64,000 bases of DNA from Lingula anatina. Its lineage: Eukaryota > Animalia > Brachiopoda. Numbering within the stretch: position 1 is the stretch's first letter; the number at the start of each line of letters is the position of its first letter. Of the stretch, positions 18,071 through 55,200 are shown piece by piece. The notes under the pieces were generated by a model. It saw only the letters and a program-made list of their open reading frames with translations, did not search any database and was not told the DNA's origin. The position numbers and the translations under genes were made by a program. Location of the stretch: the NCBI GenBank assembly GCA_051362555.1, contig CM120640.1:68860788-68924787 (forward strand), in the 5' to 3' direction.

Positions 18071-19172
18071 TGTATGGCAGATTCATTCCTACACTAAATC
18101 TTTAGCAACCTTTTCGTTGTCTCCAAAAAGAAAGAAGTAAATATAAAATCTTTTACTTCAGATCTCTTATCTTGTTAGGTGACAGTCCGCCCAGATTTCC
18201 TACCTAGATAGAAAACCGTTTATGTCATTCATTCATGTTTGGTGTCACTAGTATCTTGGAGCTTCAATTGACCAAGTTATTGTCATTGTGGAGTAACCGT
18301 GGCTGATTTTTATCTAAGAAAGGTGTAAATCCAGTACAGGCCAATTTTCTATTTTGTATGGCTGAGTTATTCCTACACTAAATCTGTAGCAACCTTTTCG
18401 TTGTCTCCAAAAAGAAAGAAGTAAATATAAAATCTTTTACTTCAGATCTCTTATCTTGTTAGGTGACAGTCCGCCCAGATTTCCTACCTAGATAGAAAAC
18501 CGTTTATGTCATTCATTCATGTTTGGTGTCACTAGTATCTTGGAGCTTCAATTGACCAAGTTATTGTCATTGTGGAGTAACCGTGGCTGATTTTTATCTA
18601 AGAAAGGTGTAAATCCAGTACAGGCCAATTTTCTATTTTGTATGGCTGAGTTATTCCTACACTAAATCTGTAGCAACCTTTTCATTGTCTCCAAAAAGAA
18701 AGAAGTAAATATAAAATCTTTTACTTCAGATCTCTTATCTTGTTAGGTGACAGTCCGCCCAGATTTCCTACCTAGATAGAAAACCGTTTATGTCATTCAT
18801 TCAAGCTTGGTGTCACTAGTATCTTGGAGCTTCAATTGACCAAGTTATTGTCATTGTGGAGTAACCGTGGCTGATTTTTATCTTAGAAAGGTGTCAATCC
18901 AGTACAGGCCAATTTTCTATTTTGTATGGCTGAGTCATTCCTACACTAAATCTGTAGCAACCTTTTCATTGTCTCCAAAAAGAAAGAAGTAAATATAAAA
19001 TCTTTTACTTCAGATCTCTTATCTTGTTAGGTGACAGTCTGCCCAGATTTCATACCTAGATAGAAAACCGTTTATGTTATTCATTCAAGCTTGGTGTCAC
19101 TAGTATCTTGGAGCTTCAATTGACCAAGTTATTGTCATTGTGGAGTGACTGATTTTTATCTTGGAAAGGTGT
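18071..19172. repeat. Tandem array of ~3.9 copies of a 284-bp unit inside the transposon
   Basis: TGTATGGC recurs at 18071, 18355, 18639 and 18923, a period of exactly 284. Copies differ by a few substitutions, and the last has a deletion. Confidence 0.95.
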
Positions 19173-24774: not shown

Positions 24775-27700
24775 CTAAGTGAATCGTACTTTCTCCAGTC
24801 TGGGGGTCAAGACGTTCTCTTCTGACGCCGGTTGAACTTTCACCTGTCTGGAGGGAGGGCGTTTCTGCTGTTTTTTAAAGCAGAAACTCCCCACGCGGAA
24901 GAGTAGGAGACGGAAGACGTCCAGGATAAGTTCGACAACTTCAAAGAGAGCCATGATGGACAGTCCCACCCAGAACCCAATTTGACCTCCAATGTCAGCA
25001 AGGAGAGCAAAAACCTACAAATAATAAACAAGTTACATGAATTGTTCTTTGGTCCTAATAGCAGAGAAAAATAAAGACACGTAAATGAGTTTCAAATCTA
25101 GTTTGGCAAAAAAAAGATTTGAAAACAAGATGTCCGTTAAAAACTGAATACTGTCTCCAGCAAAATACTTACGTCATACGCAACATTTTCGCTTATTTTT
25201 TGGAAATTTAGCTCTTGAAAATACACCTCAAGTTTCAGTAGATTGTCACTGCAAAAGTAAAGTTACTGATTAAATTTTATTGGAAGAATTTGCCCTTCAT
25301 TCTTTTACTTTACAATTCAAAATACCTTTTTTTATTCAAGTGAAAAATCAAAGGGGAAATATCCGGCCATTTAGCCTAAAGGCATACAATATGCGTTAGA
25401 CCTTTGTACAATAGATTTATTGAAATTTCAGCAAATGTTCATTTTATCACTAAGGTATGCTCTATTCAAAACCGCTGAGCAAATCACGATTTATAAACTC
25501 ATAAACGAGTTCTAAATGTTTATTTGTAGCGTCAAATGTGAAATTCACCCGTCTCATTCTCCACTGGAAGAGAGACTCAAAAACTAAACAAAGATTTGTG
25601 GACCATACTCTTGTGAAATATTATGGATATGGTGTATAACTTGGTGATTAAGGGAAATTAAAATATTGAAAACTTATATAAAGGTTTAAACCCCATTGTG
25701 TGGTTTTAACGTCTGAGTAATTATGCATTTGTCGAGATGTGTAAACCGCTTGTTATGGCTTACCCAGGTTCGGCGGCCATGCCGTTTTTTCCATTGATAA
25801 TGTTATCCAGGTGCGCTCCAGCAGAGGCCAAGGTCGCATGGAGTGTAGACTGAAAGGAAAGTTGACTACGCCTAAAACGTTTGATTCAATACGAAGACAA
25901 CATTGGCCTCCCTTTGCTATTCCTTTTCAAAATGAAATTTACATTTCCAAAGAAAAAAATGCAACCACGTATCACGTGAAAAAAATGCGGGACGACCGGT
26001 TAATACACCATTAAAAAAAATTATAACAATTAAGTATAAAATAACACAACCATTTAAGGCATTTTCAGATCTTTTGATTCGTAGAAATAACCACTTGTCT
26101 GTTCGCCATGGTTTGTTTTCAAATTTCTGGGCAAACAACTAGTTTTACACTGGAGATACACTTACCATGTATTGTTTGGACGGCCACTTTGCCAAGGACG
26201 GAACTCCGGAGTATTCAACATCTCTGAAACATACATAGAGATAACATGTACATCACTTCCTATGTAATCACCTTGTTATTCAGGGATACTTGAGGGAAGG
26301 GGAGGGGGGGCAAGGCAAGAAAACAACCGAAATGTATCAGTTTTGCGCCAAATTTGGTATTTAGAAAAACGAAGAAAAAGTAAGCGATGGTAGTTGTACA
26401 GTACTTACACACATGTTAAAGGACAGTCGCAAGACAAATCATCATCAGCAAACCTTCTTTTGATACCAGCAACACACTCATCTGGAAATGAGCAGACTTC
26501 ATTAAGTGTCATTACGGACAATTCCAGGTGCAGACCTTAGTTTCTTAGCAGACGGACTCAAATTTAGTCTTCCGAAAATCAACTCCTTTCATTTTTTTGT
26601 CTATAATTTTCCTACTCATGAATAATTGCTAGATCGGTGCCTGCACTTAGATTCTGTTTCTCATCATTTCTAATTGAAAATAACAAAGCCGTGAACGAAT
26701 AATTGTTCATTCACAACGCTGAACGTCATTCTGACATTTTAGAGGAAAAGTCGACACCAGATACCTTAATTTGAGAAGCTTTTACCGTCTTTAAGGTCTG
26801 AGTTGGGAAACGTAAGCAGTTTGCATGATATTAAAACCATATTTTGTGTTAAAATTTCTCGTCCCAGAAAAAATGTGCTAATTTACATTTTGTATTTAGT
26901 AAGATCCGGAAAATGTGTTAGTGCTGATTACAATGATTCCCTCACCATCTGCGTCACTAACACAAGGGTCAACAGATTCCGCGGTCGTTCCATTAATGTT
27001 ATTCTTCAAGTCCGAGAACGCTTCCAAGTCCAAGCTGAAGGGATAGGCAGGGTCCCCGCATGCGCATTCCGAAATCACATAGCGCTGATAGCAAGTCTTC
27101 ATACAGCCCTTAAAATAACAATAAACAACGGTAAACATTTCAAGTGCACAATGCATAATAAAATATGTATATTTGGAAACGATTACATTTCTCACTTTCG
27201 CTCTGTATGAACCACTTGGAGCTAGACTTACCGACACAGAATAGTCCACGTTGTGCACGGACGTGAACACACTTTTTTGCTTGCTTTCTTCGGTCGTGAA
27301 ATTGCGACATTTACTGGGATAGGGATGTGGCCTTCGCGTAATCTCCACCTACAATTTGAAATTTTGAAGATGACACCATATAAGGAAATATGCTGGTATT
27401 TATATATTTATTTTTTATTGCGGGGAAAACTGGCTAATGGGCCTATAACATTTATCCGTCATCAGGTTAGCTAAAATTAAAAAAATTAATAAACAGAATA
27501 TACTACGTTAAAACTATCAAAATAACAATAAAGAATATAAGCAAATTGATAACAAGAGCAAAAATAATCTTTTTTTATTTCGTCATACCGTGACAACATT
27601 TTGACATTTCATTGGATATGAGCTTAGCTGAAGAAATGGTTAAAATAAAAAAGCCTGCTACTGCAAACCATTGAATTTAAAGTTAAAACTACTCTTTGTT

Positions 27701-30700
27701 CATCAATATCACTACACCATGACATACCCGCGTCATTGCCATTGACGTGAGGTAACCTGGCGCAATGTTAAAGCCTTCATCCTCGGGGAATGCCATGGAC
27801 CTCTGACTGTGAATCTGAACACGCACCCCAGCGGACTCGGATAGGTCCCCTATGTATTCTGACTGCTCGATGTACATTTCAAGGCTCAGGCCTGAGAATA
27901 ATAAAAATAGTTTCGTTGTCATGAAAACCTACTTAGTGTATGCTGATATCCTTATAGCAGGCGAGACAGGTCGCCTGGGAGTCAGGTCTGAGCTACATGT
28001 ACCCTAGGTTCTTGATTTCAGTATATTGCCAGCTCGATCTTGATTTCATATGTAACCCATTTCAGCAATGCTAAAAAGCTACTATAGTGTGCAAGCTAGC
28101 TTTTATGGTGCCCCGACACTCAGGTCAGTCTGAACTAGACCCAGTCCCTAACGGCTAAGATATGCCCGCTTATGCCCCTATTTCATACAGACCACGAATC
28201 TCACGAATCGCCATGAATTGACAAATTTCAGGATTCGTGAGGATTCGTGAGATTTTGCCAATTTTCTGGTCTAATTCGACACGCCCTACGATTCATTTAC
28301 GATACAGGTGCGATGGTGTTACGAATATTCGTGGGATTCGGCTGGAATCGCACGAATATTGCCCAGAAATTCACTACGGTTTTTTGGAATCGGGAGTTTG
28401 TGGCCAAAATTTTGAACAGCTCAAAATTTTTGCCACGAATTCCCGATTGATCAAGAATTGCAAGAACTGACCACGATTATATACGAAACTGTTAAGAACT
28501 TAACGAACTGATTACGATTCAACCACGAATCCTGAAATTTGTCAATTCCTGGCGATTCGTGGGATTCGTGGTCTATGTGAAAAAGGGGCGGTACAAAAAG
28601 GGTACCGCTCCAGTTTGCAGGTAATTAAGTTAAGGTTGTTTTATCCCCTTTCATATGTTCGCTTCAAAGTGTTCCGTTGCCCCGGGTGTAGCAGTCAAAA
28701 TCAAACCGGTCGATGCAAAAAGACCCAAGTGTTAACTCAGCCTGCTCATAGGAAATATACAACTTGTAATTGATATGTAACTGCACTAGGGACTAAAATA
28801 AAGTTCTAATTGTCAGCGCTCTACAGAGATTTGATTAAAAAAAACATCAAATATTGTGGTTTAACGAGTCGACTCACCATACAAAGGGCCGGCGTTACTG
28901 CTAGTTTCTACGGGAATGCTTGAATCCCATCCGGAATTAAAAGTGTAGCAGTTCCCGAACTGATGATTGTTGAATCGAGTGAAATTTCTAAAACGTTTAA
29001 AATATGCTTGATATTACCTTGTAAGCAAACTTGTATGGCATAAAAAATGATGTCGCCAAATCAATATCTGCATTTGAAATTTAAATGTTGCAAATAATTA
29101 TTAAGATTAGGAGGTAAAGTCTGTGTCCTAGCTTATGATTAATCGTGATTAATAAAAAAACTTACGCAGAGCTGCATGTCACTCCGTTAAAAGTACAGGA
29201 AATAATCATAGTATCCAATTCATGACCAACAGTCTCGCGGGTTGTGTAGTTTAGTTTGGCCCAAATGTTTCCAAATCTTTTCCGCATCTCGAAACGCTCG
29301 TTCATTTGACCCTAGATGTTAAAATACCGTTATAATTTTATGGTAACCAGAATTGTGTTTTGCAAAATACTGTAAGAAATGAAAAACAAAGAAAAAGGAA
29401 GCAACATTTCTCTTTCTTTTGAAGAAACAAAATTTAACCGAATGTGAATGTCAACCCTTTTTCCGTTATCTTGCTCATGCAAAACCTCGTAAACCCAAAG
29501 ACTCACTGGTTTCCGTCTCGAAGTACTAGTGCTGTTTGTCCCGGTACTTCTGCGTTTTCGGCCACTTGGCGGTGCTGGCGGTCCTGCCGGAGCTTGAGTT
29601 GTCCCACCGCCGCCACCAGCAGGCGCACCTGCTGTGGTCTGGCTAGAAGCCTGGCCTTTAGTTGTCCCACCGCCGCCACCAGCGGGCGCACCTGCTGTGG
29701 TCTGGCTAGAAGCTGAACCTTTAGTTGTCCCACCGCCGCCGCCAGCAGGCGCACCTACCGTGGTCTGACTGGCAGACGGTGCTTGAGTTGTCCCACCACT
29801 GCCACTTCCTTTTGGGCCAGGTGCAGCAGGTGCCTGTGTTGTTATGCTGGAGGAGGCGGGGCCTGGAGGACCCGCAGCTGCCTGGGTGGTCTGACTCTGA
29901 CTTGCAAAGGACCCTGCAGGACCTGCTGGTGCTTGCGCACCGCCAGGACTGCTTCCCATTTGTGATTTTGGCGGCCCTAGGAGAGCGTAAACATCATCAC
30001 CAGCGCTTGAAAGCATAGATCTCCTGGAAGAATAAATGGGTGTGTCGAATTAAATCAAATATTTACAATCAAATAGTACAGGCAAAGAAGAGCGAAGAAA
30101 ATGGCAAAATTCACTTTGACTTCCTAATAGATTCCTTTGTTGGTACTGAAGTAAGTTGAAGTAACCGTAGAAAAAAATATATGAAAATGCAATATGTTGA
30201 CACCTAGAACTCTAGACATGTAAATATTAATTCTCTAATCCATACGTTTATTTCCTTTCAACGGGTACCTTTTCTGATTTATCCAATTAAGCCTTACCAA
30301 TTAGATTATAATCAGCTCTGTGCTTAAGAAGTATTGAACCGAACAAGGCTTTTAATGAACAAAGTGTTTGGTAATCCAGAGTCGATTGGAATTATTAATG
30401 ACGGGAAGTAATCCAGATATTTGACCTATTTATGAAATGCAGCAGAATGAATGATCAATTAGTGTATGAAATGTCAACAATACAATGTTACCCAAAATTC
30501 GACAGCCACGTTTGTGGAAAACTTGTTCATTTTTTAGATTATCTTTATTACATATAGCAGACGTCTTTTTTGTTTTATAGCCTTTCAAAAACATTAAAAG
30601 TAAAGAAATGCATATTCAAAAAGTGGAGAACTTAAAAGGCAGGAGATTTTGGAACAGTACCTATATACAGATAGCACATTCAGAGATGCATTTTGAGACC

Positions 30701-33236
30701 TACCTTAGTGGGTTTACATTACAGACAGTGACGGCGGGAAAGTACACTTCTTTGGAATGGGTGTATGTCAGCGTCGTATCAACAGGAAACCTGTAGAACT
30801 TAGCGACCAGTTCCCAAGTCTGATAGCCCATAACACCTAAAAAAAGAAGTAAAATCAACGACTTCAATTTTATCTCACATGTAAAACCTACTTCAAATGT
30901 TCTAGGCATTTTTCAACAAAAAATGCAATTTTGTATTATTTTATATCATACTTTGGCCTGTTTCATCATTATTATTATTATTATTATTATTAAGTCTGTG
31001 TCAAATTTCCCTTGCTGCTGAAATGTCGGTTTTTCTCAAATGGAGTATATTTGTCGGATCGGATTTACATCATTCCTCCAAGAAAAGAATCTCACATGAC
31101 CTGCCTGCTGCAAATTACCTGTTTAATTCTCTGGTACATAAAAGCAATATTTAGCTGAACAAGATGCATGATACCTATGTGAACGCCACCCACATCTTAC
31201 CAAAGCACGCGAGGAAGAGGATAATCCATACTGTCCGTCTGAAGATATTAATGTCAGAGCGCACTATATTCGGCAATCCGTTCACTGGACTGTTCGACGC
31301 CCAGCTATAGGACAGCGCAATCAATGATTCTTGCTGCTTTTTATCGCCTTTCCCCATTTTTTCGAGTCAAAACAGACTGAATAGTTGAAGCTCAGCGCAA
31401 TAATAACATTCAAAAATGCTCACACCCCCGACTGACTATGTTGACCAAAATTACCGCAACTGATATTGTCAGTATTGAGCACGGTGTGTTTTCCTACCCT
31501 AGAGGCACATGAAAAAGAGGGGGGGGGCACCTTCGTTTAATGTAGTCTATCGTGTCATACATCTTTCCTTATTTTTCTTCAAAATGTTTCGAAAATGCAC
31601 GATGAAAGAAAAAGAAACCGAAGGAAAGAAAAAACAAGTACACACAAAGCTCCAGGAATATTTCAACAATTCCTGGGCAATAACATATCCCCTTGGCTAC
31701 CCCTCCTTCCACCCCTGGGGCAATCAATATGAATACTCTTGAACAAAGGTATCTGTTATGACTGGACAAACGACTCTGCAATGACAGGACTTCATGGACC
31801 GTTGCGTTAAGAAAGAAAAATAGACAGAAATAGTTCAGAAATAGTTTAGTGCTTAAGTTGGTTTTGTAGAAGTTTCAAACACAACGCCAAATTTAACAAA
31901 TACTAATGGGGCAAAATACTGAGTGAAAATCAATTTATTGTACTTGCGTTGTTGACTTGACAAACACGTAAAATGTGTTGCTCTCCAGTTTTCTTTTTGA
32001 TCGGGTGTTTAAGTAAATTATTTATAATTATATATTCAATTCAAGTTATTTTCTTGTGAATGCGTACATTTGGGTTGCGTTTGGGTTGGTAAGAAATGCA
32101 ACTAAGAAAGAAAGTTTACAGCAACCTATATGTAGCGCTTGCATTCATCAAAATTGATTAATCGCTACCTAGCTTAGGGTTCATTCTCAAATGAAACTAC
32201 CGTTCTACCTAGATCGATCCAACTCCAATACAATCAGATTAACAGTCTAAGACGCAACCTCGGTTCCAGAGTGCTCTTATAATCATTAGCTTCCCTGTAA
32301 TCTACTCCTAGCCAGGAGGAGGCGTGTTAATCTGTTAATCTGATTGCATTCAGCAGGAGTCCCCGCGGAGCTGGACAGATCTACGTAAAACGATAGTTTC
32401 ACGGGGAATGACCCCTTAGTGTCCGTCAATCTGCAATCAATAAGTGCGAGTTAGTTTTGTCTACAAGCACGGCTATCGTGCCAGTTCTTTTACAGAGATA
32501 TGATGGATGCATAGCAATTTCATTGACCAAACTGCTTTGATAGCTTAATCGCCAGTTTGCCAAGTGCCCGTCAGTCTATAATCAATTAATCCAAGCCAGT
32601 TTTGTGTTAGGATTTCGGGGCGTTAATAGAACCCTGAAGCAAAAAATGTCCCCAATTGTCACGCCTCATTAATGAGATGGTTACATACCCTATGTATATA
32701 CCAGTATCCATGTACTCTTTTAATCGATTTAATGATGTACTTAATATATAAGTATTTGGATTAAACATCAATTACTTTACTGATAACAATATATGCCCAA
32801 TTAGCCTAAAACACTATTGAATCAGACGGTTAAAAACATAATAATAAGTCCTTTTAATTGGTGTTTATCACATTTAGACTGTTTGCCATTGACGTACATT
32901 AAAACCTGATCAATTCTAAATAGAAACCGATGTAAACTGTAGTAAACGAAGTTTTATAGTTGATTATTTAGTGAGAGAACGGGTTCATTGTTTCACAAAT
33001 GATAAAAAGAAATAACTTTAAAAAAGTAGCACGCGCCTCTGTTAGACCCAGAGCAGCGAGAGAAGATAGGAATTCATCTTCAACAAATAGGAAACGTTTT
33101 TAATTTTTACTGTAACTCGGCTGTTTTACACGTAGAAAAATAAGGCAACATACTCTTGCCGCAACTGGTACAGTTGAGATAATCTAAGACCACATGTTTT
33201 GCAAAATAGAACAAATTGTCTTTTTAATAAAATTCA

Positions 33237-33275
<39 letters not shown>

Positions 33276-34780
33276 TTGAACTATAGAAAAAAAACTACAT
33301 GTACAAACAGTTGTCAGATCATACTAACTGCACCAATTAGTGATCCGGAGAAATGGGCGCTTATAATCAGAGGAGATCATTTCACATTGAAGTACATTTA
33401 TTTGAATTACACATGCAATTTAAAAAAGTCAGCGTGGAATAGATACCAGTTATCTAGCGTTAACACTCGACGTAGCTCTATTTGATTGACGCGTGGTATA
33501 GAATTTAAGTGTGGACGCTCAGGACACCTTTACCTATAAAAGATGAACTTCTGAACTGGTTTGTTTATACGATAGATGTTACATCAATCACTGCCCATGA
33601 ATAAGTTAAAGGCAGTGATATGCAATCACTTTGCAACGGCTGAGTTGACGAACCGAAGTTGACTTTTCCATTAGCATCGATCACAAAAATACCCGGGATT
33701 GAACAGCTTATTTGATCATTTGTCGTCAGTCATGCCGTAAACAGTAGGTGATAAAATGAATTTATTTTCACTTATTTCTTGCTATGGGATCTCAAGCTAA
33801 TTGTTCTGTCTGTCCACCTGTTCTTTTGTCTTGTAAGTAATTGTAAATGTGGCTGAAGCTTAAAAGTATTTTAGTATTTATTGTATGATCCCATGCTAAG
33901 GGTTTAGAATAAGAGCGCATTTAACAAACGCAATCTGGGCCATGACATCAGTTTTCGTTTCTTCTTGGCGAATCCGTAATTGCAGGATGAACTTTATAAT
34001 GGATTTCATTATAACTGACATAAACAAATTGCACGTAAACATAGAGATGGAAGTTTAGCCTTCTTTTTAATATATTTGTATTGTGAAAAAAATGTAAGCA
34101 ACCTCAGTAATTTAGTACACAAGTGCTCTTTTGACTGGATTACTTTTGTAAAGTTATGCACAAGAATGACAAACAATCATTCAATTTCTTTGTCATGATC
34201 TTGTCAATTTGTGGTAGCCAACTTAGGCGGAAACCTTCCTTATAAGTATATAAAAAAGAATATGATTGATGCTTTTGTGAAATGCGTGGAAAGGCATTAT
34301 TCATTCCAACAAATGGATTAAAAATACTTCACATTAGTTATTTTTGCCCACTTCTCACCACCAAAAGTAATCTGTACCTTCTAACATCGATGCACTATTT
34401 CTCATTTTATCTTTATGACCGATTCATGTAAAGTTATTACCTGTTTTTGCATGCGATACTGCAAAAATCAGTTTACCTCTCATAGTTTTAAAACACTAGA
34501 AGAATTCAATTACATATGTAATCGTGAAAACGTTGATATATTAACTGCCTTCTGCATCTTTTAAATAAAACCCAGAAATTACTTAATTTACCAATTATTC
34601 TCAAGCTGATAGATAAGCATCATTCTATCTGAATCTTTTTATCTCAACACGCATCACAATAAATGTATCATACCCTACTATTAAAGTCTGTTGCTGCCCA
34701 CCAAACTTCGTTTCCAAATTTGCTCTGCATGATTACGATCAAAGTAATTGGAATGTCAATCCCTTGGAGCCGATGGTTTC

Positions 34781-34816
<36 letters not shown>

Positions 34817-37800
34817 GAATCAATCAATCAATCAATCAATTCATTAATTAATCAATTAATCAATTAACGTTTTGCTCTTACCAAAACACCCTAGAAGCGC
34901 CACCAGCCAGAAGAAGCGCTTGATCAAATTTTGCGACCTCACGACGTTCGGTATTCCATTCACGGGACTGTTGGACGCCCAGTCGTACGCCAAGGCAATT
35001 AGACTCTCTTCACGAGCGCTTTTCTCTGGGTCTTGGGAATTATGATCTACTACCAAGCTGTTTTTGAAAAAGTCAAACTGATTTTTTTCGGATGGATACA
35101 TAGTTTGCGCCCCCGTACTCATCTTGCGCCAACTTGAATAATCGGTTACTATACGAGGCTGATATATGATGGACTTTTAGGCTACCTAGTCAAGTCGTCG
35201 GACCAACGTCAATTAGCTAAATGCTGATGTCTGTAGCCCATTTATAAAGAATCGGAAGTGGGTAATCCATAATTGACGATTACGCCGCGGTGTAAATTCA
35301 AGTATCCAATCTCAAACCCGTAGTCAATAGCAGTTTTCAAACACAACCTTTGTGTTGAACTGTTGTGAATGGTAATAACAACAGCTGAAATTGTGCCGTG
35401 CCAGTTTCTCACCTGGATTAGAAAGATTCCAGAAGAAAATTCAATATAAAAAACTTCAGAGGATAATCGGCGCCATTTATTGTTTTTTTATAAATCAATG
35501 ATGTGTGAACCGTCAATATTCGATTGTAATTATTGAAATATAACTGTTAAGAGATAAGAGAAGACAAGAGATAAAGAATAATTTAGTCAATTAAATATAC
35601 AAAAATTGTTTACCAATGAAATGTAAATTTTCATTTTGCAAAGCACTCAAATTATCAAAAATATAGTACTAAAAAATGTAAAACATTATTTTGCTAGAGA
35701 AGACTCTTTCTGAAGAGACATTATGCTTACATTGATGATATTTACTGTAGTAAAGAAAAGACCGCCGAGTCTTTTGGCATAAAACTGGTCTATCAATGGC
35801 AACAAACATTAAAGAAAATATTCATACTAGTAAAGGTTTAAAATGTACAGGATGTATATTTTTGATAAATATTCTGATTACTGCCACTGCCATATTGTAT
35901 TTTTTCATCAGAAACAAAAATAGGACAAAAATCAGAACAAAAGAACGAAATATATGCAATTACAGAAGACTGGGATTAACTGGAATTCAAATTAATGATT
36001 AATGGCAAAGAGTCGAACTATTTTAGATCATGTTTTGTCACCCATAACCGTAAGGTAAATGAAATGTGTCATGTATGAATAAGTTAGCTGAAAAAAGGTT
36101 GAGAGTTTTGATCACAACAGCGGGATGTGGTATTCAATTTTGTTCTTTAAGTGCATCACCTGAAATCTTCGGATGATCTGGAAAACGCGTTTTGATACAG
36201 CATGAAGGTGAAGTTGACATTGATCCATACGGAAAAAGTGTAGAAAAAAACTCGATCAAAATCCATTCCATAAGCTTCCCCCCACCACCCCCACCACCCC
36301 CAACCCCTCTTTACCAACTCAAATAAACCAGCACAGTATGCACGTGAGACCCACATGATGGTAACATCGACCCTTGTTAAGTGCATGTGTTCGATCTGTA
36401 TCACGTTGACAGGGAAGCATTATGCTAGCACTACAATTCATGATCATTTTCGATGCTTCCTGTTTAGTTTACTTCCAACCAAGTAAAGCGTTAATCCTCT
36501 GTGCCTGGAATTTTAGCCAATACGTTGAAATGACCATTAATGATATTGGTCGATATTAATCGATTTGTGAAAACCTGTAAGGACATTGTGATGAATATCC
36601 ACCTCTACCTTCTCTTTATGATTTTCAATTATTCCTTTATTTGTAATTGTAGTGCCATATGCTTTTCTACCAGTGTGTTTGTAGAAAACTATACCTTAGT
36701 TATACTTATTAGTTAACTATACAATGTTATTGCTAAGAAGCCCATGCGACGTAACAGAATAGACTAGGTTGCATTGGGTCTTTAAACCGAGAAACTGCGT
36801 TGGGTTCGGGTATTATTTGAAAATTATTTGACACAATTACTTCAAAGGCCAAGTTAAGTAAGCGCATTTCGCTTTGAATGGGCCTGTGTTTGCCTATCTC
36901 TTATAACCGTGATTTGCCTTGTACGTTGTAACAGTTACTCCTGTTGATAGGAAGTGCAAACGAAGTCTAAATGCCCAATCAACCTTTCTTCATTCTGGCC
37001 AATTAGATTCTTGGAAATAGAACCCGGATGTCGCAATGATTAACAGACGTCACACTAGCTTTACTTTGATAGCAAGCGTGTTATAGGTTTACGTTAAAGT
37101 TGCCATAATAGAAAAAAGTTTTTAAAGCAATGTTATTGGTAACGGAGAAGGTAAATTGAATACTATCCTGGCTAACAGTGTGCTATACTACTTAAGATAC
37201 CGTGCTTACGTAGTGCCTAAGGTAAAACCCCAGAAACACTGATAACAAGAGACTGCGTTAGGACACATTATTGTCTAACAGTGCAGTTACATATCTCTGT
37301 TTTTTCATCTGTATAACTGTCTTGAAGAGAGGTTCCCGGTAACAGTGGAGTGTATTAGTCAAAGTGAATGTAATGAATTAAGTAGTTGTCAGGACAGGGG
37401 GGAATGAAGAGATACCGATATCCATTGTTTTTATTTGGGTTTATGAACAACAATAAGGAAAAGACAAGAAAAAATTCAGTTTCAAAAGTCCATTATCGAT
37501 TCAGTTCACATAAATGTTTTCAATGGGTAATTAGGCTTATGTTTATAAAAAGTTTCTTTATCACATTGCTTCAACAAGAATTGAGGAGTGAAAGTGATGT
37601 TAGGCTCGGTAATAGAGCTTAAGCTTGTAATCTGGTGTAAATTTTTTATAAGACCAAATGTTGCACACACACACACACACACACACAGATAGATTGTGAG
37701 CTGTGGTGATGATCAAAATAAAATTGTAAAAATTTTCATAACAAAGTCATCACTTGAATATCAAAAGTCCCTCTGTGCTTTAAGAAGGCAGTGATAAGAC

Positions 37801-40270
37801 CACTGATAAAGAAGGCAGACCTTAATTCTAATGTCCTAAAAAACTATCGACCAATCTCGAATCTGTCATTTCTTTCCAAACTCCTGGAACGTATTGTTGC
37901 AAGCCAATTAAATGACTATTTGAGCAGTTTTTCCTTATATGCAAAATGCCAGTCTGCATATAGACCAAACCACAGTACAGAAACAGCCCTTCTTAAGGTG
38001 CAGAATGACACTTCCAAGCCCTGAATGATCAGAAACATGTGATATTGATTCTTCTTGATCTATCAGCAGCTTTCGATACTCTCGATCACGACATATTGCT
38101 CCAACGACTTGCACACCGTTTTGGGATAACTGGGACAGCTCTCTCCTGGTTTTGGTCTTATCTAACTGGACGCGAGCAACATGTACGCATAGGCTCTTCT
38201 ATTTCAAAATTAAGCAAATTACTTTATGGTGTGCCACAAGGCTCCGTGCTTGGTCCTATACTGTTTACACTCTACACCTCACCAATTGAGGATATAGTTG
38301 CTCAGTTTGGTTTCAATTTGATGTTGTATGCAGATGATTCCCAGATATATGTTATATGTGAAAATCCTTGTGATGAAAAAGCAACTATTGAGGCTTGTGT
38401 GAATGAACTTAGATCTTGGCTCAAGTCCAACTACTTAGTTTTTAATGATGAAAAAACTGAATTAGTCCATTTCAACTCTAAGTTTTCTAAAGACAATACT
38501 GCACTTGATAGTATTAGAGTTGGGGATTCTTTTATAAAACCAACAACAGAAGTAAGGAACTTGGGTGTTATTTTTAATAACAAATGTGAAATGACATCAC
38601 ACATTAACAAAGTATGTAAAACAGCATATTTTAGTCTCCAACGGATATCCAAGATCTTTCACCTTATTAACACCAAGCAAACTGAATTACTCATCCATGC
38701 ATTTGTAACCTCTAGACTGGATTATTGCAATAGCCTATTGTTTGGAATACCTAACTATCAAATGGAAAAGCTACAATCAATTCAGAACTCTGCTGCTCGT
38801 CTCCTCTGTAAAGCTCAGAAGTCCGACCACATCACACCAATTCTGCGAAACCTCCACTGGCTACCCGTGTCTCAACGAATAGTTTTTAAAATATTACTTT
38901 TGACTTTTAAGATTTTAAAGGGCGACTGTCCATTTTACTTAAACTCTACCACAGAACTTTTAACTCCTATCAGGTCACTTCGATCTAGTGGACAACTTCA
39001 ATTTAAGCGAAAAGACACTAAAAAGACTCTTAAGACATATGGACACAGAAGTTTCAAGATTTGTGCACCGATTTTATGGTCTAATTTTATCACAAGATCT
39101 AATGTGTCTCTGGATGACTCATATTACTGTTTTAAGAAGAATTTAAAAACTTTTTTATTTAAAGAATACTTTAATTTATAGCATCTTTTTAGTTTTTAAA
39201 ATTTTTAAGTATCCTGTTTTTTAGTCTATAGTGGCTTTAATTTATCTGTGGAGTTTATATTTTTATGTAAACAGCGCTGAGACGCATGTGTAGCGCGGTT
39301 TTAAAGAAGTGTTTTATTATTATTATTATTATTAAAGGTATTCTACACGAGATTAACCATCCAGGATGATTTTGTAGGAGAAATGTTTCTTCTGCCACGA
39401 ATTATTTCTCGACTTGCTCGACCTATCCCTGCCTTGCATCCGACGTTTTGTCCCTTTTTTATTTGAATGTTTGAATGATTAAGTTTTACATATTGCTAAA
39501 GTCGCTAAGTAAGTCAAAAACTAACGTCCTATTTCGATCCCATGCTTAAATTAAGCGTACTAAAATTGAATAAGTTTAGGACATTCAATCCATATGTATG
39601 AAAAGGTTCATGACACATCGATTTGTTTTTGATGTGGGGAAAAATCCTGTGGGGTAACACGATATACTTAACGTGGCAATCCTTGGAATAGGTTTAAATA
39701 ACACGTGAAGACAAATGTTTGATATCAGTTCCAACAGATGTTTTAAGACTCCCGTATTTTCATCCGTTTTCAAGTTTCAACTTAATTAATTTCATAAAAT
39801 ACATCTTTATCCAGAAAACAAAGTTAGCATACCACCTAAGAAATTGTTATAACTAAAAACTTAAGATAAGAAAAGCAGATACATTTAGGAAAAGTAAACG
39901 ATGTAAAATATATCTATTCGACAAACTTACCAAAGCACATTAAAAGCAGTAAAGTCCAGGTCACTTTACCCACACTGGATGTCGAGCGTGCGATATTAGG
40001 AACGCCGTTTATGGGACTGTTGTCTCCCCAGTTTTTACAGAGCAGCAGCATGCTTGTTTCATCCTGCTGTTCGGCTGCGCTAGGGAGTTGATCTTGTGCC
40101 TGACGGACAAATAAACCGCCGCCTTCAAAGTTTGCAGTTTTTGAGCATGATGAATATTTACCGTTCTCTGACTGTTCTGAATCAAAACCAGTACCTCCAT
40201 TTTTCTGGCTGTTTAATAAGCTTCTTTGTGATGTTGCTCTTTGTTCCTGCTCATATTTGTCTTGCTGCAT
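24775..40270 (-). CDS. DEG/ENaC (amiloride-sensitive channel family) subunit. Common exons: 30836-30704, 30023-29507, 29311-29166, 28987-28878, 27891-27728, 27348-27232, 27108-26946, 26481-26409, 26223-26166, 25849-25764, 25248-25173, 25014-24775. One of three first exons is added, giving 679, 707 or 740 aa
   Basis: Family motifs: [60 protein letters not shown], the cysteine-rich thumb (CMKTCYQ..ECAC; CDCPLTC), [14 protein letters not shown], and TM2 [15 protein letters not shown] with a GxS filter. All 12 introns are GT-AG with matching phases. Confidence 0.95.
28174..28589. mobile_element. MITE with ~65-bp TIRs in a channel intron
   Basis: GCCCCTATTTCATACAGACCACGAATC...GAATTGACAAATTTCAGGATTCGTG pairs with CACGAATCCTGAAATTTGTCAATTC...GTGGTCTATGTGAAAAAGGGGC. 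The interior is rich in CACGAAT/ATTCGTG. Confidence 0.85.
29580..29810 (-). repeat. Coding 63-bp (21-aa) tandem repeat in the channel ectodomain
   Basis: GTTGTCCCAC recurs at 29598, 29661, 29724 and 29787. It encodes SQTT(A/V)[11 protein letters not shown](K/Q)-type units. Confidence 0.9.
31201..31357 (-). CDS. DEG/ENaC alternative first exon A (proximal)
   Basis: [53 protein letters not shown]|gtaag, with a phase-1 donor. Confidence 0.9.
32177..32415. mobile_element. Tourist-like MITE (TTA target duplication)
   Basis: GGGTTCATTCTC..TGAAACTACCGTTCTAC.TAGATC pairs with GATCTACGTAAAACGATAGTTTCA..GGGAATGACCCC, with TTA on both sides. A partial relative lies at ~49619-49750. Confidence 0.75.
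33240..33274. repeat. (CA)n microsatellite
   Basis: Read directly from the sequence. Confidence 0.95.
34882..35122 (-). CDS. DEG/ENaC alternative first exon B (middle)
   Basis: MSTGAQTMY...[45 protein letters not shown]|gtaag, with a phase-1 donor. A minus-strand TATAAA lies ~120 bp upstream. Confidence 0.88.
37768..39335 (+). mobile_element. 5'-truncated non-LTR retrotransposon (L2/CR1 group), RT domain with one frameshift near 38010
   Basis: Motifs [64 protein letters not shown] and HITPIL..LHWLPV. The 3'UTR ends in a (TTA)n tail at ~39314-39335. It is antisense to the channel, between first exons B and C. Confidence 0.93.
39931..40270 (-). CDS. DEG/ENaC alternative first exon C (distal)
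   Basis: [10 protein letters not shown]...[46 protein letters not shown]|gtaag, with a phase-1 donor. Confidence 0.88.
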
Positions 40271-42329
40271 TTTGCTTTTTTTGTCGAACTTCCTGATATC
40301 TCTAAAACTTTAAAAACTCCACAAAAATTTCAAAATGAGTAATTTCCTTACTAAACCTTGAAATCTCAACACACAACATCATAGGGCTGTGTTGACTGTT
40401 ACATAGTTGAAGCCGCGGGGATATGAAACCGACGCACAGGGTTTTCTATACTATATAGATGGTCGATTGATTTACGCTTCATTAGCAATTTTTTTGTCTT
40501 TAAGAAGTTACAAGGTGCACGTCGATAATATGTCTATTTTCGTAAGCATATTCCTAGCTGTCTGTCAAAGGGTGGAATTTGATTATTTCACGCTTCGTTT
40601 AAAACCATACCGTTCTAAAACATGTTATATAATATTTATTTACATTTATATGTACACTAAGGCTGCTTTTCAGGTCTTGAGGGGTCTGAAATTATGTCAA
40701 AACGTCCTGACACGATCAAGATAATACTTTATTAACATTATTCTTTGTGCAATATTTGCATGTAATTCATTTGTAAGCCCTCTTTATAAGTAACACCAAC
40801 AGATCAAAGGCCTTAATATCGGAGGACAAGGGGCAAGAATTCGACCCTTGAGAAATAGTGCAGTATTAAGATTGGTACTAATTCTTTGTGCCTCATTTTT
40901 GGTTAAATTAAGGTCGATGATTAATAAAAGGCTACAACCAACATGTAGAGTAGAAAATGACACTTTTCAATGTTGGTTAACGTAGTTTATCCAGATTAAT
41001 ACGTGACATGGGTTAACGTCTTGGTAAAAATTTCGGAGAAATGATTTGCACAGTGCCACATGAGGGACACATGTTCCACATACCCTGGCCTGGCTGCAGC
41101 TTTTATAAGTACAAGCGCATGTACTTTTTCGAGATGTATAGGCCTATTGTTTTTCCATACTGTACAAAATGTTCTGTATATTTTTTGGTCGGTTTGAAGA
41201 AAAAGACAACTTCGGCGGCAATTTTTTTCTTTTTTCTTAATTTTTTCCTTCAGAATAATGCAGAAATGAAACTTTTTTCAACCGGTTCTATAATGTATAT
41301 TTCTCAACTTTTATTGAAACATATCACTCTTATACGGACAGAGGAAGCTCCACCCAGCCCCATTTATTCTGAAACTATCTCTTGGCGTCTTATCAGAAGG
41401 AAGGAGAGATTGATCTTATCGTTTGAGGCACACCGGAGCACCGCAAAATATCCAAAACTGTATCGAAATGTTTAATGTCTTCGCAGCTGGGCTTGGAGTA
41501 TCAAAGCATCATAGTCGCATTTCAATTTAAACCCCTAGTGTGTAACTAGAACTTACATGTTAAAACAGACCAAGAACTCATACACATCAGCAGGATGCAC
41601 ACAAATATTTATTTGTAACATGAAAAAAATAAGTAAAACACAAAAAATCTAAAATACCAAAGTCACATTTTTGGAGAAATATAGGTATGAACAACGCTAA
41701 AACTATTCGCCTGCCAATGTAACATCTGTAACTAAGAAAAGATTTTACGTGATCTGTTCGTTCTTTTCAAGCTCCCACCAAACAACTTTAGTTGGTCCTA
41801 GTCCTGCTTATGTACACTTTTTCTAAAATTTTGCACAAAAGATAGCAGGATTAAGAACCAATAAGTGTATATTGTTTCTGACATAATTTCTTTAAAAAAA
41901 CGTTTGACTAATTAAATTCCTTTTATGGATAACTGTTTTTGTAATGGGAGCCAGAAAAGATACAAAATTTTTAATGGTCAAAACTGTTCAAAAGTAAGCA
42001 TCGGAGGCAATAGGCCGACAATTTTTGAAATTAAGCTTTAAATGTTGAGGGTATTTCACCAGAAGTACAAGATCACTAAGATTTTTCTGCCTTGTCTGAA
42101 ATGTTATTACATGTACCTATAAGTAACATGGACCCTATCGAAACTTGGACAGTAAAATTATTATGTCATAAGAATCACAGTATTCATATTTTCAAATATT
42201 AATTGAATTCCTAGTATAATTTCTGAAAATATTGATACTCAGTTTAATATTGCCAATAAAATGTGCGGGTCAAACAGGCCAGGCCTGTCCTCAGCCTGCT
42301 GAGAATTCAAGTACGTACGCTGGCTATGT

Positions 42330-42495
42330 CTATTCAGAATAGGGGACTAACTAGTCCGAGGGTCAAATATGGTGACCCACTACAAAGCTTGCCGTCTAAT
42401 CCGCTAATAGGCACTGAACAGATTCCCCGTGGAGCAGATTAAGGTGGGTCGGCCATATTGGACCCTTACACTACTTAGTCCCCTATTATGAATGG
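42330..42495. mobile_element. Small palindromic MITE
   Basis: ATTCAGAATAGGGGACTAA...GGGTCAAATATGG pairs with CCATATTGGACCC...TTAGTCCCCTATTATGAAT. Confidence 0.65.
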
Positions 42496-42903: not shown

Positions 42904-44906
42904 TTATCGTCGTCCGCGGTTCGTCCAAGGTGCTTGAGGGCACATCTTCCATATGCACATAGGAAAACCTGAAAAAGGTAAATAACTACACATATATTGA
43001 AAAAATACACTTTAAACTTATGATATAAGTCTTTTATAAATATTTCAGTCAAATAAAAAGATTAAATGTTATGTGGATGTATGTGACAAATTTTACCACT
43101 ACCTAGGAGGTTTCTCATACATTTCCTTGCTACTACACGTACCAGCTTCTCCTTAAAGGGATAATAACTCTTCGTATGAGATCTATATTTCACAATAAAA
43201 ACATTGTGAATAACTCACAGAAATATAATATATTCTGTTTTACCACAAAAACGGCAGTTATAGCTATTATTCTGATATCTGAGCTTGTCTTTAGACCACG
43301 TGACCTCCACTGATGGCTATACTCTGTTAAAATCTCTTAAGAGATTTTAACAAAAAACCAAACTTTTTAGAATAAAAAAACAGGGACTAACTTTGATTGT
43401 AAAAATGGATTCATTAATCATTGGTAAGTATGGGAAAATTGTTGTTTACTCCAGGAAAATTCATTTTTTGGCCGAAACGAAGAGTTATTATCCCTTTAAC
43501 GTTTTAGGATGGATATATAGTAACTTCCCAGCACACACAGAACGTTTTTTAACATTACCATCACGTTACCGTAACGATTTTTGGTTATATTAACGTTATG
43601 ATAACGTTCTGTGTTTGCAGCTGGGTTGTCACTGCATCTACACTACATATATCCCATATCATTAAAATTCAACCCCCTAAAATAGGTGTGAATGCTCTTT
43701 TATTATCACATGCCAAGAAACCGACAATATACAATAGCATTAACGAACTTACCTCCATCCTGCCGCTTCCTAGGTACGTCAGGGCCGTTTGGTACTTTAG
43801 ATTTCATTTCTGGAATCTGTTTAATGGCTCCATCGTAGTCCAATTTGTTTTCCATATTTTTGAGACCAGATAATAAGTTGGCAGTGTCGCCTTGGGTGAA
43901 CCGACCAAAAGCAGCATTCTGAAATAAATAGTGAAGTGTGGGTTAGGAAAGGCATGCTTTGGAATTAGACCATTTGGAGCGCCGTGGAAGAAAACTGGCT
44001 TTTCAGGGGATTAAAGATATCAAAATAAAGAGCCTATTAAAAAATTGGCAGCAAAATATTTGATAAGTTTCCAAATAAACATCTGAGAAAAGTATGCTTG
44101 GAAAGTAATCAAACATGATCAGCGATTACTGTTTTCGCTCATGTTACATTGCATGCCCACAGGACGGCCATGATCGATGATAATCTGCACTGAGATAGGC
44201 CTACCATTAGGGACCATTCCCAGACCCTATCATACCAACTTTGGATTTGTCTATCTCCTAGGGGATTCTCGCTAAATTGCAATTAACTTAAGCGGCTTCG
44301 ATGTCTGTCACGCCTACTGAAGCTGATAGGGGGTAATTAACTATCGTTTAGCAGCTTTGGTAGGCGCGCCAGACACCTAATCCGCTTAAGCTGAAAGCAA
44401 TTTAGCGAGAAACCCCGTGGAGATGGTACGATCCCGTTAGATCGATCTAGGTATGGAAACCCAGTTTTAGACACTGGTCCACAATACCTCAACAATCGAG
44501 CATAAGCACGTCATTTGGCGGGCTCTTATGAATTGGAGGGAAGGATAAATAGGTCTAGATTACAACCAGCAATATGAAAAAGGTGCAGTTTTTTTTATTT
44601 GCTGACCGAGTGATTTATTTGCTCATTCTTTGGCAACTCAACATCATTTGAGTTGTATTAGAAACAACTAGAAGTGGTTTATATGTGTTAATTTTACGCC
44701 GTTAATTGAGACTCCGTGGGAGGTGGGTCTAACAGGTTAGACCCAGGATGAAAGGATGAAACCTGAAAGAAAAGACAGGATTTATGCAACAACCAGGCGA
44801 CATAACAAGCTTGGCTTCGTATTTCAACGAGCATTGCCCTTTTGCGGTTGCAGGAACGCTATGGCGTAACGCTGATTAATTTAGTGCTAAGCTGTTAAAC
44901 CCATTT

Positions 44907-52241: not shown

Positions 52242-55200
52242 ATGAACTGTGAGGATGATTTTGAAGACGATGACGAACAGGAGGACTGGCGTTCTTGTGA
52301 TTGGGCTCAACCGGGGAATCAGGCCCCAAGTCGTCAAAATTCCAAAAGGGACTCCGAGATGGAGAAAATACAGCGTCAAAAACAAGACGGAAGCTCATTC
52401 AGTGATCTTAGTAGGTGTTCCCAAATCTTATATATCTATTTCAGTCTTCGTTTCTGATAAATGTGCTGCCCCGGTGTAACGAACGGAGAGTTCTACCCTT
52501 ACAATGTCCGGCGGCCGCGGATGCTACGTTTTAAAACTGACAGTGCAAGACTCTAACTTTTGAATCCTAGGGTCTCCTGACTTCTTGTTCTAAAATGGAG
52601 GAACCGCTTGGAAATTCCGAATCCTTAGTGGTCTGCGTTGCTCCTCCATTTTTTTACAGCTATGTGTGGGCTATTGTGAATCGGATCCACATTCTCAGTT
52701 TCTTGTACATCTACATTGACAAAGTCATCAAGGGGATCTTCATTGAGTTTGTTGCAAAATTTCTTTTCCTTGGTCGCTGATTATAACCGATGAAAATCCT
52801 AATCTTCCGATAAAGGACATATGCTGCAAATACTTCAATTTAACTTTCTTGCAGCTAGTAATTGTTTTTAAATAAAATGTTGTTACAAGCATGCCGAACA
52901 AACAAATGTTCATTAAGGTTTAACATTTTTTAAATGTTTTAAATAAAGAAGCTTTGTGTATTTTGGTAAACTCATATCATCATCAGCTGTGCAACATACA
53001 CAGCAACTGAAGAAGCACTTTAGTTCTTCAGTGCTATGGCAGATGCATGCTTAGTTAAATAACAGTTAACTGTGCATATATATCTGTTCCCCCTGTGTGA
53101 TTCCGCATAGTTATTTACTTCTTTAGTATTTACTTGACACTCGTGGCATGTAGCTATGTAATGTCATATGCCACTGGTCATGCTTGGTCAGTAGTAATGT
53201 CTTTTTGTGACTCCAAGGTGTCCACTTGAATGTATCAGTACCCTTTTTATGTACAGACACAGATGTGTCTGTACATATAGCCATCATCTGCGTCTGTCGT
53301 CGCCGTCGTCGCCGTCGTCGCCGTCCTTGCCGTCGTGCACTTTTACCGATAACACGATAAGTGGAAAACTGTTTTTTATTTCAGCTTGAAACTTACAGAA
53401 TTGATGAATATTCATAATACACAGGTCAAGTTCGAAAATCAGCATGATTGGGTGACTTGTAGGGAAGTTATGCCATTTTTTCACTTTTTTCAGCATATAT
53501 GCAGCACCGATAACACGATAAGTGGAAAACCATTTTACTTTTTGGCCTGAAACTTACAAAACTGATGAATATTCATAATCCGCAGGTCAAGTTCGAAAAT
53601 CAGCATGATCGGGCCATTTTTAGGGGAGTTATGCTATTTTTTCACTTTTTTCAACATATATGCAGCACTGATAACACAATATAAGAAAAACAGATAGGCC
53701 AATTGTCATTATACTTACAGGAGTGGTCAATCTTACTAAAATGCAGGTTGAGTTCCAAAATCAGCATAATCAGGCCATTATTTTAGAAGTTATGCTGTTT
53801 TTTCGCATTTCCTCAGATTCAATTGTTAGGCATGTTAACAGTGTCATTATTGAACTAATAAGATATGTAAAAGTGTTTGTTTGACATTTCCTGCATCTTT
53901 ATGACATTGTTAGTTGATTATGTAAAAATGATGGTAAACTTGATATCGTGTATTGTGTAATAAAGTGTCAAAAATGGAAATAAACTCATATCATTGCAGT
54001 TTTTCAGATTCATTCATCTACTATCTTCAGAATCTCAGAATGGAGGAAATTGGACATTTAACACTGTTCTATTGATATTTTTCCCATCTCATCAATTTTC
54101 TTAGTTGGTCATATACAAATGGTAGTAAACTGTTTATTTTGTTTTATGTTAAAAAGGGTTTTAAAAATGGAAGAAAACCCATTGCAGAACAGTGCTGTCA
54201 TGTTTCAGCATATATGCAGCACCGATAACACGATAAGTGGAAAACCATTTTACCTTTTGCCTTGAAACTTACAGAACTGCTGAATATTCATAATAGGCAG
54301 GTCTAGTTCGAAAATCAGCATGATGGGGTCATTTTTAGGGAAGTTATGCTGTTTTTCACTTTTTTCAGCATATATGCAACACTGATAACATTAGTGAAAA
54401 ATCATTTTACCTTTTGGCTTGAAACTTGCAGAACTAATGAATATTCATATTACGCAGGTCAAGTTCGAAAAGCAGCATGATCAGGTCATTTTCAGGGTAG
54501 TTATGCTGTTTTTTCACTTTTTTCAGCATATATGCAGCACCGATAACACGATAAGTGGAAAACCATTTTACCTTTTAGTTTCAAACTTACTAAGTACAGA
54601 ACTGATGAATATTCATAATACGCAGGTCAAGTTTGAAAATCAGCATGATCGGGTCATTTTTAGGGAAGTTATGCTGTTTTTCACTTTTTTCAGCATATAT
54701 GCAACACTGATAACATGATAAGTGGAAAACCATTTTACCTTTTGGCTTGAAACTTGCAGAACAAATGTGTATTTATAATACGCAGGTCAAGTTTGAAAAT
54801 CAGCATGTTCGGGTCATTTTTAGGGAAGTAATGCTGTTTTTTCACTTTTTTCAGCATGTATGCAACACCTATAACACATTTGTGCTATATGATGGTACTG
54901 TAGGAATGGGTGATCACTAATTAAATTAAGGTCTATAAAGTCACTTGCCTACTCATTAATTTTCAATTGGCCATTAAATGAGATTACATAAAACACTCCT
55001 TGAGATTTCCCTGTAAAGTCCCATAGGTTTAGCTCTCTTAACTGTGTCACAAAATTAGGATTTGGTGATAATTGTGCAGATAAATGGTGTTTAACATTGC
55101 AAATAAATTTACAACAAAAAAAAAAGTGATATGCCAACATGCTATAGATGAATAACAGTGCTTTATTTTTCTCAAACTTGGTGGGGTTATTAATATCAAG

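What the first reader, a model, noticed from the sequence alone, without database searches (positions are those of the whole stretch)
31201..40270. One DEG/ENaC channel body with three paralogous, interchangeable N-terminal/TM1 exons
Seen: three separate ATG-initiated exons (31357-31201, 35122-34882, 40270-39931) each encode a different-length N-tail, a conserved W-x-x-N-S-P-(V/I)-N-G-x-P-N-(I/V)-x-R-S block and the inner half of TM1. Each ends in CF-G|GTAAG in phase 1, matching the single acceptor at 30836. I found no second channel body between them. All three are stop-free despite clear divergence, which suggests each is maintained by selection. Established: the pre-TM1 re-entrant loop and inner TM1 shape gating and ion selectivity in ASIC/ENaC. 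ASIC1a/1b also differ by alternative first exons, but those swap a larger region that includes ectodomain. Inference: this is a variable-first-exon/constant-body cassette that changes only the intracellular pore module under separate promoters. In a trimeric channel that allows up to 10 subunit compositions sharing one ectodomain.
Basis: partly seen in the sequence, partly recalled or inferred. Interest (0 to 1): 0.8.

Follow-up and report, generated by a model that had tools for sequence, protein, structure and literature searches.

The report
Sodium channel, three swappable front ends
A sodium-channel gene of the lamp shell Lingula carries three old, intact copies of its first coding exon in front of one shared body; database gene models join two of them to that body, so the gene likely makes up to three subunits that differ only at the inner mouth of the pore and in the cytoplasmic tail, a three-way and more compact version of the exon swap known from our own acid-sensing channels.

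Summary
Three ATG-started, stop-free exons (A 31357-31201, B 35122-34882, C 40270-39931) end in phase-1 GT donors that fit the single acceptor at 30836. One 12-exon body follows, and the 64-kb window holds no second body. The organism is Lingula anatina and the channel is closest to ENaC. Between the exons synonymous sites are saturated (pS 0.70-0.78) while pN is 0.27-0.48, and the flanks share nothing: an old duplication under purifying selection. NCBI models join B to the body here, and both B and C on a near-identical second scaffold; no model uses A. Eight of 9 RNA runs gave no junction reads, but the body was also essentially uncovered, so that test is blank. Separate promoters, heterotrimers and changed selectivity are untested. 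A and B have nearly the same re-entrant loop and differ mainly in the tail. All three carry Asn-Gly where the family has His-Gly. Human ASIC1 and ASIC2 are catalogued N-terminal tandem-exon swaps, so this is a new variant of a known kind.

The parts
39931..40270 (-). First coding exon C (distal): 113 aa, long tail, re-entrant-loop block with Asn-Gly, inner TM1, phase-1 donor
   Evidence: joined to the body in NCBI model P0006 on a second scaffold, 1 difference in 113 aa
40301..40321 (-). Candidate splice acceptor 31 nt before the ATG of C (possible non-coding leader exon upstream)
   Evidence: score 10.2 with a matrix built from only 12 acceptors; one of 2 of 538 AG sites in 31360-41000 scoring 10 or more; unverified
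37763..39260 (+). LINE-type reverse-transcriptase fragment between C and B, not part of the channel
   Evidence: RVT_1 E 3.8e-23 on ORF 38009-39178; reads from other copies cover it
34882..35122 (-). First coding exon B (middle): 80 aa, phase-1 donor
   Evidence: joined to the body in NCBI models P0004 and P0005
31201..31357 (-). First coding exon A (proximal): 52 aa, short lysine-rich tail, phase-1 donor; Inr-like TCAGTC 23 and 78 nt upstream
   Evidence: no A+body protein among the 3 cluster members
30704..30836 (-). Shared exon 2: outer TM1, beta1 and the FPAVTVCN motif; the only acceptor of its kind in the window
   Evidence: Pfam ASC E 1.5e-9; single tblastn hit
29507..30023 (-). Shared exon 3: Gly/Ala/Pro/Thr/Ser-rich insert with 21-aa repeats and an RKRR furin-like site
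   Evidence: the second-scaffold copy has one repeat fewer
24775..29311 (-). Shared exons 4-13: 29311-29166, 28987-28878, 27891-27728, 27348-27232, 27108-26946, 26481-26409, 26223-26166, 25849-25764, 25248-25173, 25014-24775 (ectodomain, TM2 with GLS filter, stop)
   Evidence: identical to NCBI P0004; last exon Pfam ASC E 1.4e-5

Best explanation
This is one ENaC-like DEG/ENaC gene of Lingula whose first coding exon is present in three old, intact tandem copies, each likely transcribed from its own start site and likely spliced singly onto the shared 12-exon body, so the gene would make three subunits with the same ectodomain and TM2 but different tails, re-entrant loops and inner TM1. Shown: the anatomy, frame compatibility, saturated synonymous divergence with conserved protein, and database models for B and C. 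Inferred: real use of A; separate promoters; and the effect, most likely cell-type-specific expression plus differences in trafficking, regulation and open probability (A versus B mainly through the tail, C also through the loop and TM1) rather than large changes in ion selectivity.
For: Three open exons with matching phase-1 donors and one body. Over 42 aligned codons pS is 0.78, 0.75, 0.70 and pN is 0.27, 0.42, 0.48 for A-B, A-C, B-C; 15 of 25, 9 of 16 and 9 of 15 identical residues use different codons; blastn finds no similarity in the flanks. In 20,000 neutral simulations at 1 substitution per site, ATG, frame and GT survive in 0.08% (B) and 0.01% (C) (A not simulated). NCBI has B+body on this scaffold and B+body and C+body as isoforms X2 and X1 on a second scaffold; that Gnomon isoforms usually rest on transcript alignments is recalled, not checked. 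An unnamed relative from another sequencing run (P0007, 216 of 350 body residues identical) matches the A, B and C cores at 24, 25 and 15 of 42, against 27 of 42 for A-B, so the A/B split is about as deep as that divergence. No pyrimidine-rich acceptor lies in or within 120 nt before A or B that would let first exons stack. Homologous N-terminal swaps come from alternative promoters in the human catalogue (PMC8373072 passages).
Against: No read spans any of the three junctions; depth over exon 2 was 0 in 8 of 8 runs laid, so the test is blank rather than negative. No A+body protein is in the cluster, although a C form at 90% identity is, and the window's own scaffold has only B models in the cluster. 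No promoter was demonstrated; TATA- and Inr-like words are sparse and inconsistent. C has a strong candidate acceptor just upstream. Saturation between paralogues shows past selection, not current use. No second species was found with more than one first exon: 3 word-based searches and 1 profile search gave one close relative. The 42-column tree is unresolved.
Confidence: 0.6

Rival explanations
1. The three coding exons are used, but they are chosen by splicing from one shared non-coding leader exon (one promoter), not by three promoters.
For: Strong candidate acceptor 31 nt before the ATG of C, a moderate one 19 nt before A (score 5.5), and strong ones about 520-550 nt before B. Two NCBI accessions encode the identical B protein, which suggests variation in non-coding parts (inference).
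Against: The matrix is built from only 12 sites and favours AT-rich DNA. No docking or selector-like complementary element was seen among the 25 longest of 99 inverted repeats or the 20 largest of 56 direct families. Only about 2.6 kb separate C from the stop codon of the upstream peptide gene.
Confidence: 0.17
2. Only B and C are live; the proximal exon A is a recently silenced copy or too rarely used to matter.
For: No A+body model among 3 cluster members; no read on A in 8 of 8 runs (uninformative).
Against: A has an intact ATG, frame and GTAAGA donor, the shortest branch of the three in the tree (0.076), Inr-like words at -23 and -78, and lies only 364 nt from the acceptor. A gene this weakly expressed can easily lack a model.
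Confidence: 0.15
3. B and C (or A) are leftovers of deleted tandem paralogues, or the assembly collapsed three complete genes onto one body.
For: Related DEG/ENaCs occur as fused tandem gene models (P0012, P0017, P0040, P0140). A near-identical second copy of the gene exists in the same assembly. No whole genome was available to check.
Against: First exons this diverged (36-64% in the core when P0007 is included, 40-64% among A, B, C) would not have near-identical bodies to collapse. Relics would not stay intact at saturated synonymous divergence. B and C are annotated with a body on two separately assembled scaffolds.
Confidence: 0.08

Closest known systems
Human ASIC1a/1b and ASIC2a/2b (PMC8373072 Supplementary Table S1 rows; PMC11339754 passage)
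   Same: Same superfamily; homologous, tandem-duplicated alternative first coding exons on a shared body; the swap includes the tail, the His-Gly loop and TM1.
   Different: Two versions, not three. The listed exons are 121 aa (ASIC1a) and 236 aa (ASIC2b) and reach into the ectodomain ('first third of the protein'); here the swap stops inside TM1 and no extracellular residue changes. The Lingula channel is ENaC-like, not an ASIC, so the arrangement likely arose independently (inference).
KCNAB1 and GCNT2 (three tandem-duplicated 5' exons), and the protocadherin and UGT clusters (PMC8373072 passage)
   Same: Three or more homologous variable first exons on constant exons.
   Different: Different protein families; the variable part is not a pore-lining element.
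Vertebrate ENaC beta, gamma and alpha subunits (solved structures), clade B of DEG/ENaC (PMC10507113 passages)
   Same: Best structure-database matches (beta-ENaC 167 bits, gamma 159, ASIC1 152); cysteine-rich ectodomain, G-x-S filter, furin-like site in the finger region.
   Different: Low overall identity, Asn-Gly for His-Gly, a long low-complexity insert; clade placement rests on scores and on names of near relatives, not on a tree with named reference channels.

Membership tests
DEG/ENaC superfamily (Pfam ASC) | Two TM helices around a cysteine-rich ectodomain with the FPAVTxCN motif | tested here: met
   Pfam ASC on exon 2 (E 1.5e-9) and last exon; 32 solved sequences matched, best E 7e-48; hydropathy
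DEG/ENaC superfamily (Pfam ASC) | G-x-S selectivity belt in TM2 | tested here: met
   GLS aligned with GGS of beta-ENaC
DEG/ENaC superfamily (Pfam ASC) | His-Gly motif in the pre-TM1 loop (highly conserved, not universal) | tested here: not met
   Asn-Gly in A, B, C and P0007; among 150 profile hits 102 have HG and 6 have NG, so the change does not exclude membership
DEG/ENaC superfamily (Pfam ASC) | Trimeric, amiloride-sensitive cation current | not testable with these tools
   needs heterologous expression
Tandem exon duplication-derived N-terminal substitution (PMC8373072) | Alternative exons homologous, in tandem, frame-compatible with one downstream exon | tested here: met
Tandem exon duplication-derived N-terminal substitution (PMC8373072) | Each exon found spliced to the shared body in transcripts | tested here: inconclusive
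   NCBI models for B and C, none for A; no covering reads in 8 of 8 runs laid
Tandem exon duplication-derived N-terminal substitution (PMC8373072) | Alternative promoter use | tested here: inconclusive
   motif scan only; no start-site data
ASIC (proton-gated) | Placement in the ASIC clade and the wrist His73 / palm Lys211 determinants | tested here: inconclusive
   ENaC beta and gamma outscore ASIC1 and named near relatives are mostly ENaC-like; Lingula ASIC is described as a singleton; the two residues were not mapped and no reference tree was built

The most novel reading that the evidence does not exclude
All three exons are co-expressed and Lingula builds a family of up to 10 trimer compositions (11 arrangements) that share one sensor ectodomain and differ only in the lower pore and tail: a natural domain-swap experiment on the re-entrant loop, in a lineage that has also replaced the conserved gate histidine with asparagine, a change reported to largely diminish current in alpha-ENaC.
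Probability: 0.15. Interest if true: 0.7.

Novelty: new variant of a known kind. Interest (0 to 1): 0.42.

Why it matters
In ASIC1a/1b the swapped exon changes both the lower pore and part of the ectodomain, so the two effects are entangled. Here nature swaps only the tail, the re-entrant loop and inner TM1, so three natural isoforms would isolate what that module does in an ENaC-like channel, where its role is less clear than in ASICs. It would also be a likely independent origin of the same splicing solution in the other main DEG/ENaC clade, and a natural test of a channel that works with Asn in place of the gate His. The surprise is tempered by the ASIC precedent and by earlier, unchecked scan notes of many duplicated-exon cassettes in this genome.

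Tried and rejected
RNA: no RNA holder was listed by the index. Depth over exon 2 was 0 in all eight; one run (X8) had a trace in the bin holding exon B (0.88x) and in the last-exon bin (0.33x), too little to assign; 46 weaker joints were not displayed, but none can reach an uncovered exon 2. This is a blank, not evidence. No whole genome was held, so other paralogues and the second scaffold could not be read as DNA. Search with exon C against longer proteins: 0 of 179 candidates passed. Looked for alternative first exons in relatives' clusters: Gigantopelta X1/X2 differ by a 6-aa insert, the Macrostomum set shares the pre-TM1 block, Lineus X1-X5 differ internally; 19 clusters of relatives were looked up and the members of 3 aligned. 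Tree of 42 columns: A, B, C and P0007 group at 88/85, the order inside is unresolved, and one clade of A, B, C is not rejected (p-AU 0.34). Docking or selector RNA pairing: none evident. A structure prediction was submitted and had not finished, so the re-entrant loop is assigned by alignment only. No complex prediction was sent: the trimer exceeds the size limit. Literature: searches (titles and abstract starts only) showed no description of this gene or of three first exons in an invertebrate DEG/ENaC; the library lacks most subscription papers, and supplements of the DEG/ENaC phylogeny papers were not opened and may list this protein. The upstream peptide gene was considered as a source of a shared leader or as a ligand and set aside: it is a complete gene of its own and adjacency is no evidence.
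Full report
Observation. On the minus strand A (31357-31201), B (35122-34882) and C (40270-39931) translate without stops to 52, 80 and 113 aa and end in Cys-Phe plus one base followed by GTAAG. Downstream lie 12 GT-AG exons from 30836 to the stop at 24775; each first exon joined to them gives one open frame, of 679, 707 or 740 aa. tblastn over the whole window finds exactly three first exons and one exon 2. Between C and B sits a LINE fragment. The next gene upstream on the same strand is a three-exon peptide precursor whose stop is near 42907, which bounds the 5' end of the channel gene.

Identity. The last exon retrieves P0004, named by NCBI as an amiloride-sensitive sodium channel subunit of Lingula anatina; it equals the B form letter for letter. 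Against solved structures beta- and gamma-ENaC score best (167 and 159 bits), ASIC1 next (152). Named near relatives are mostly ENaC-like proteins of nemerteans, hemichordates, molluscs and an annelid. This fits the uncharacterised ENaC-side clade B described in PMC10507113 (passages), but I built no tree with reference channels.

What the exons encode. By alignment to beta-ENaC the conserved block is the pre-TM1 segment, with Asn55-Gly56 of the B form on His36-Gly37. In chicken ASIC1 this segment forms a re-entrant loop lining the lower pore, and His to Ala, Asn or Cys in alpha-ENaC largely diminishes current (PMC7308080 passages). All three exons and the one close relative P0007 have Asn-Gly; among 150 profile hits 102 have His-Gly and 6 Asn-Gly, so the change likely predates the duplication. 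The intron falls inside TM1. A and B differ at 2 of 16 residues in the loop block and mostly in their tails; C differs more throughout. The fold prediction did not return, so the loop is assigned by homology.

Selection and age. Over 42 aligned codons synonymous sites are saturated (pS 0.70-0.78) while pN is 0.27-0.48; blastn finds similarity only in a 36-nt exon core, none in the flanks. Neutral simulation at 1 substitution per site leaves ATG, frame and donor intact in 0.08% of 20,000 trials for B and 0.01% for C. P0007, 62% identical in the body, is 57-60% identical to the A and B cores and 36% to C, against 64% for A-B. The duplications are therefore old, roughly as old as that divergence, though the short tree cannot order them. 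This shows long purifying selection, not present-day use.

Are they spliced? The cluster of P0004 has 3 members: B+body on a 417-kb scaffold (two accessions), and B+body (X2) and C+body (X1) on a 136-kb scaffold. The second copy differs by one 21-aa repeat and about four residues, most simply the other haplotype. So the annotation treats B and C as alternative first exons of one gene; that such isoforms normally rest on RNA alignments is my recollection of the pipeline. No A form is present although it would fall in the same cluster (one search shows the C form does at 90%). My own read test was blank: 8 of 9 same-species runs, 6-30% of each, gave zero depth on exon 2 and at most traces elsewhere on the gene. 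The gene is rare or restricted to tissues not sampled.

How the choice is made. In the human catalogue homologous N-terminal swaps arise from alternative promoters (PMC8373072 passages), which is the default here. No good acceptor lies in or just before A or B to stack first exons, and no docking element was seen. Against the default, C has a high-scoring acceptor 31 nt before its ATG and B has some about 520-550 nt upstream (weak matrix), so non-coding leaders, private or shared, remain possible.

Likely function. The ectodomain, with its low-complexity insert and RKRR site (furin-like sites in 16 of 37 full-length relatives), and TM2 are shared, so the stimulus and main filter would be the same. 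The variable part would set where the channel is made and how it is trafficked, regulated and gated. Mutations in pre-M1 and M1 change selectivity in ASIC1a but contribute less in human ENaC while affecting conductance (10.1101/2021.02.16.431267, abstract), so large selectivity differences are the less likely outcome. Ten trimer compositions is correct arithmetic but needs co-expression and self-assembly, both untested.

Comparison and novelty. [quoted passage not shown] Three 5' sets are known for KCNAB1 and GCNT2. What is new here is three versions, in an ENaC-like invertebrate channel, cut off inside TM1 so that no extracellular residue changes. Searches showed no paper on it; passages of PMC11750451, PMC9949801 and PMC10148893 mention Lingula or brachiopod channels but no such isoforms. 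Two of the three isoforms are nevertheless already in NCBI as unremarked models. Earlier scan notes report many duplicated-exon cassettes in this genome (unchecked), which lowers the surprise.

Verdict. Real feature; new variant of a known kind; interest 0.42. My odds: B and C both used 0.85, all three used 0.7, all three from separate starts 0.6.

Noticed in passing
window 48520-48361, 43918-43750, 42969-42907 (minus strand): Three-exon secreted peptide precursor: signal peptide, phase-0 then phase-1 introns, basic cleavage site, and a four-residue cysteine ring with Ile-Trp-Lys. It matches the protostome somatostatin/urotensin-II-like (SSRP-like) gene structure of PMC9048919 (passages and section 11), whose text already reports the family in brachiopods although its figure legend says lost.
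   Followed up: partly
P0173, P0171, P0139, P0170 (Lineus longissimus NCBI isoforms X1-X4; region equal to window exon 28987-28878): A close nemertean relative has four alternative homologous internal segments in its ectodomain, a second duplicated-exon cassette in this channel group. Its DNA was not seen.
   Followed up: partly
window 30023-29507: Exon 3 encodes a long Gly/Ala/Pro/Thr/Ser-rich insert with 21-aa repeats ending at RKRR; the repeat number differs between the two Lingula copies and a similar insert is in P0007. It could be a glycosylated, cleavable inhibitory segment (inference).
   Followed up: partly
P0117 (Acropora cervicornis model) and P0061 (unnamed): P0117 holds two pre-TM1/TM1 modules in a row, possibly two duplicated first exons fused by the gene predictor; P0061 seems to read through an intron at the same place in TM1 as here.
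   Followed up: no
window about 5461-5814 (+), 15206-16990 (+), 58800-64000 (+): BORCS8 exon, Mutator-like transposase and a DNA polymerase kappa-type (IMS family) gene.
   Followed up: no
window about 18080-19160 and 53380-54830: Tandem arrays of units of roughly 190 nt and 150 nt seen by eye in the sequence.
   Followed up: no
window 28170-28600, 32220-32380, 42330-42490, 43150-43500: Short inverted-repeat elements that collect many RNA reads from copies elsewhere in the genome.
   Followed up: no
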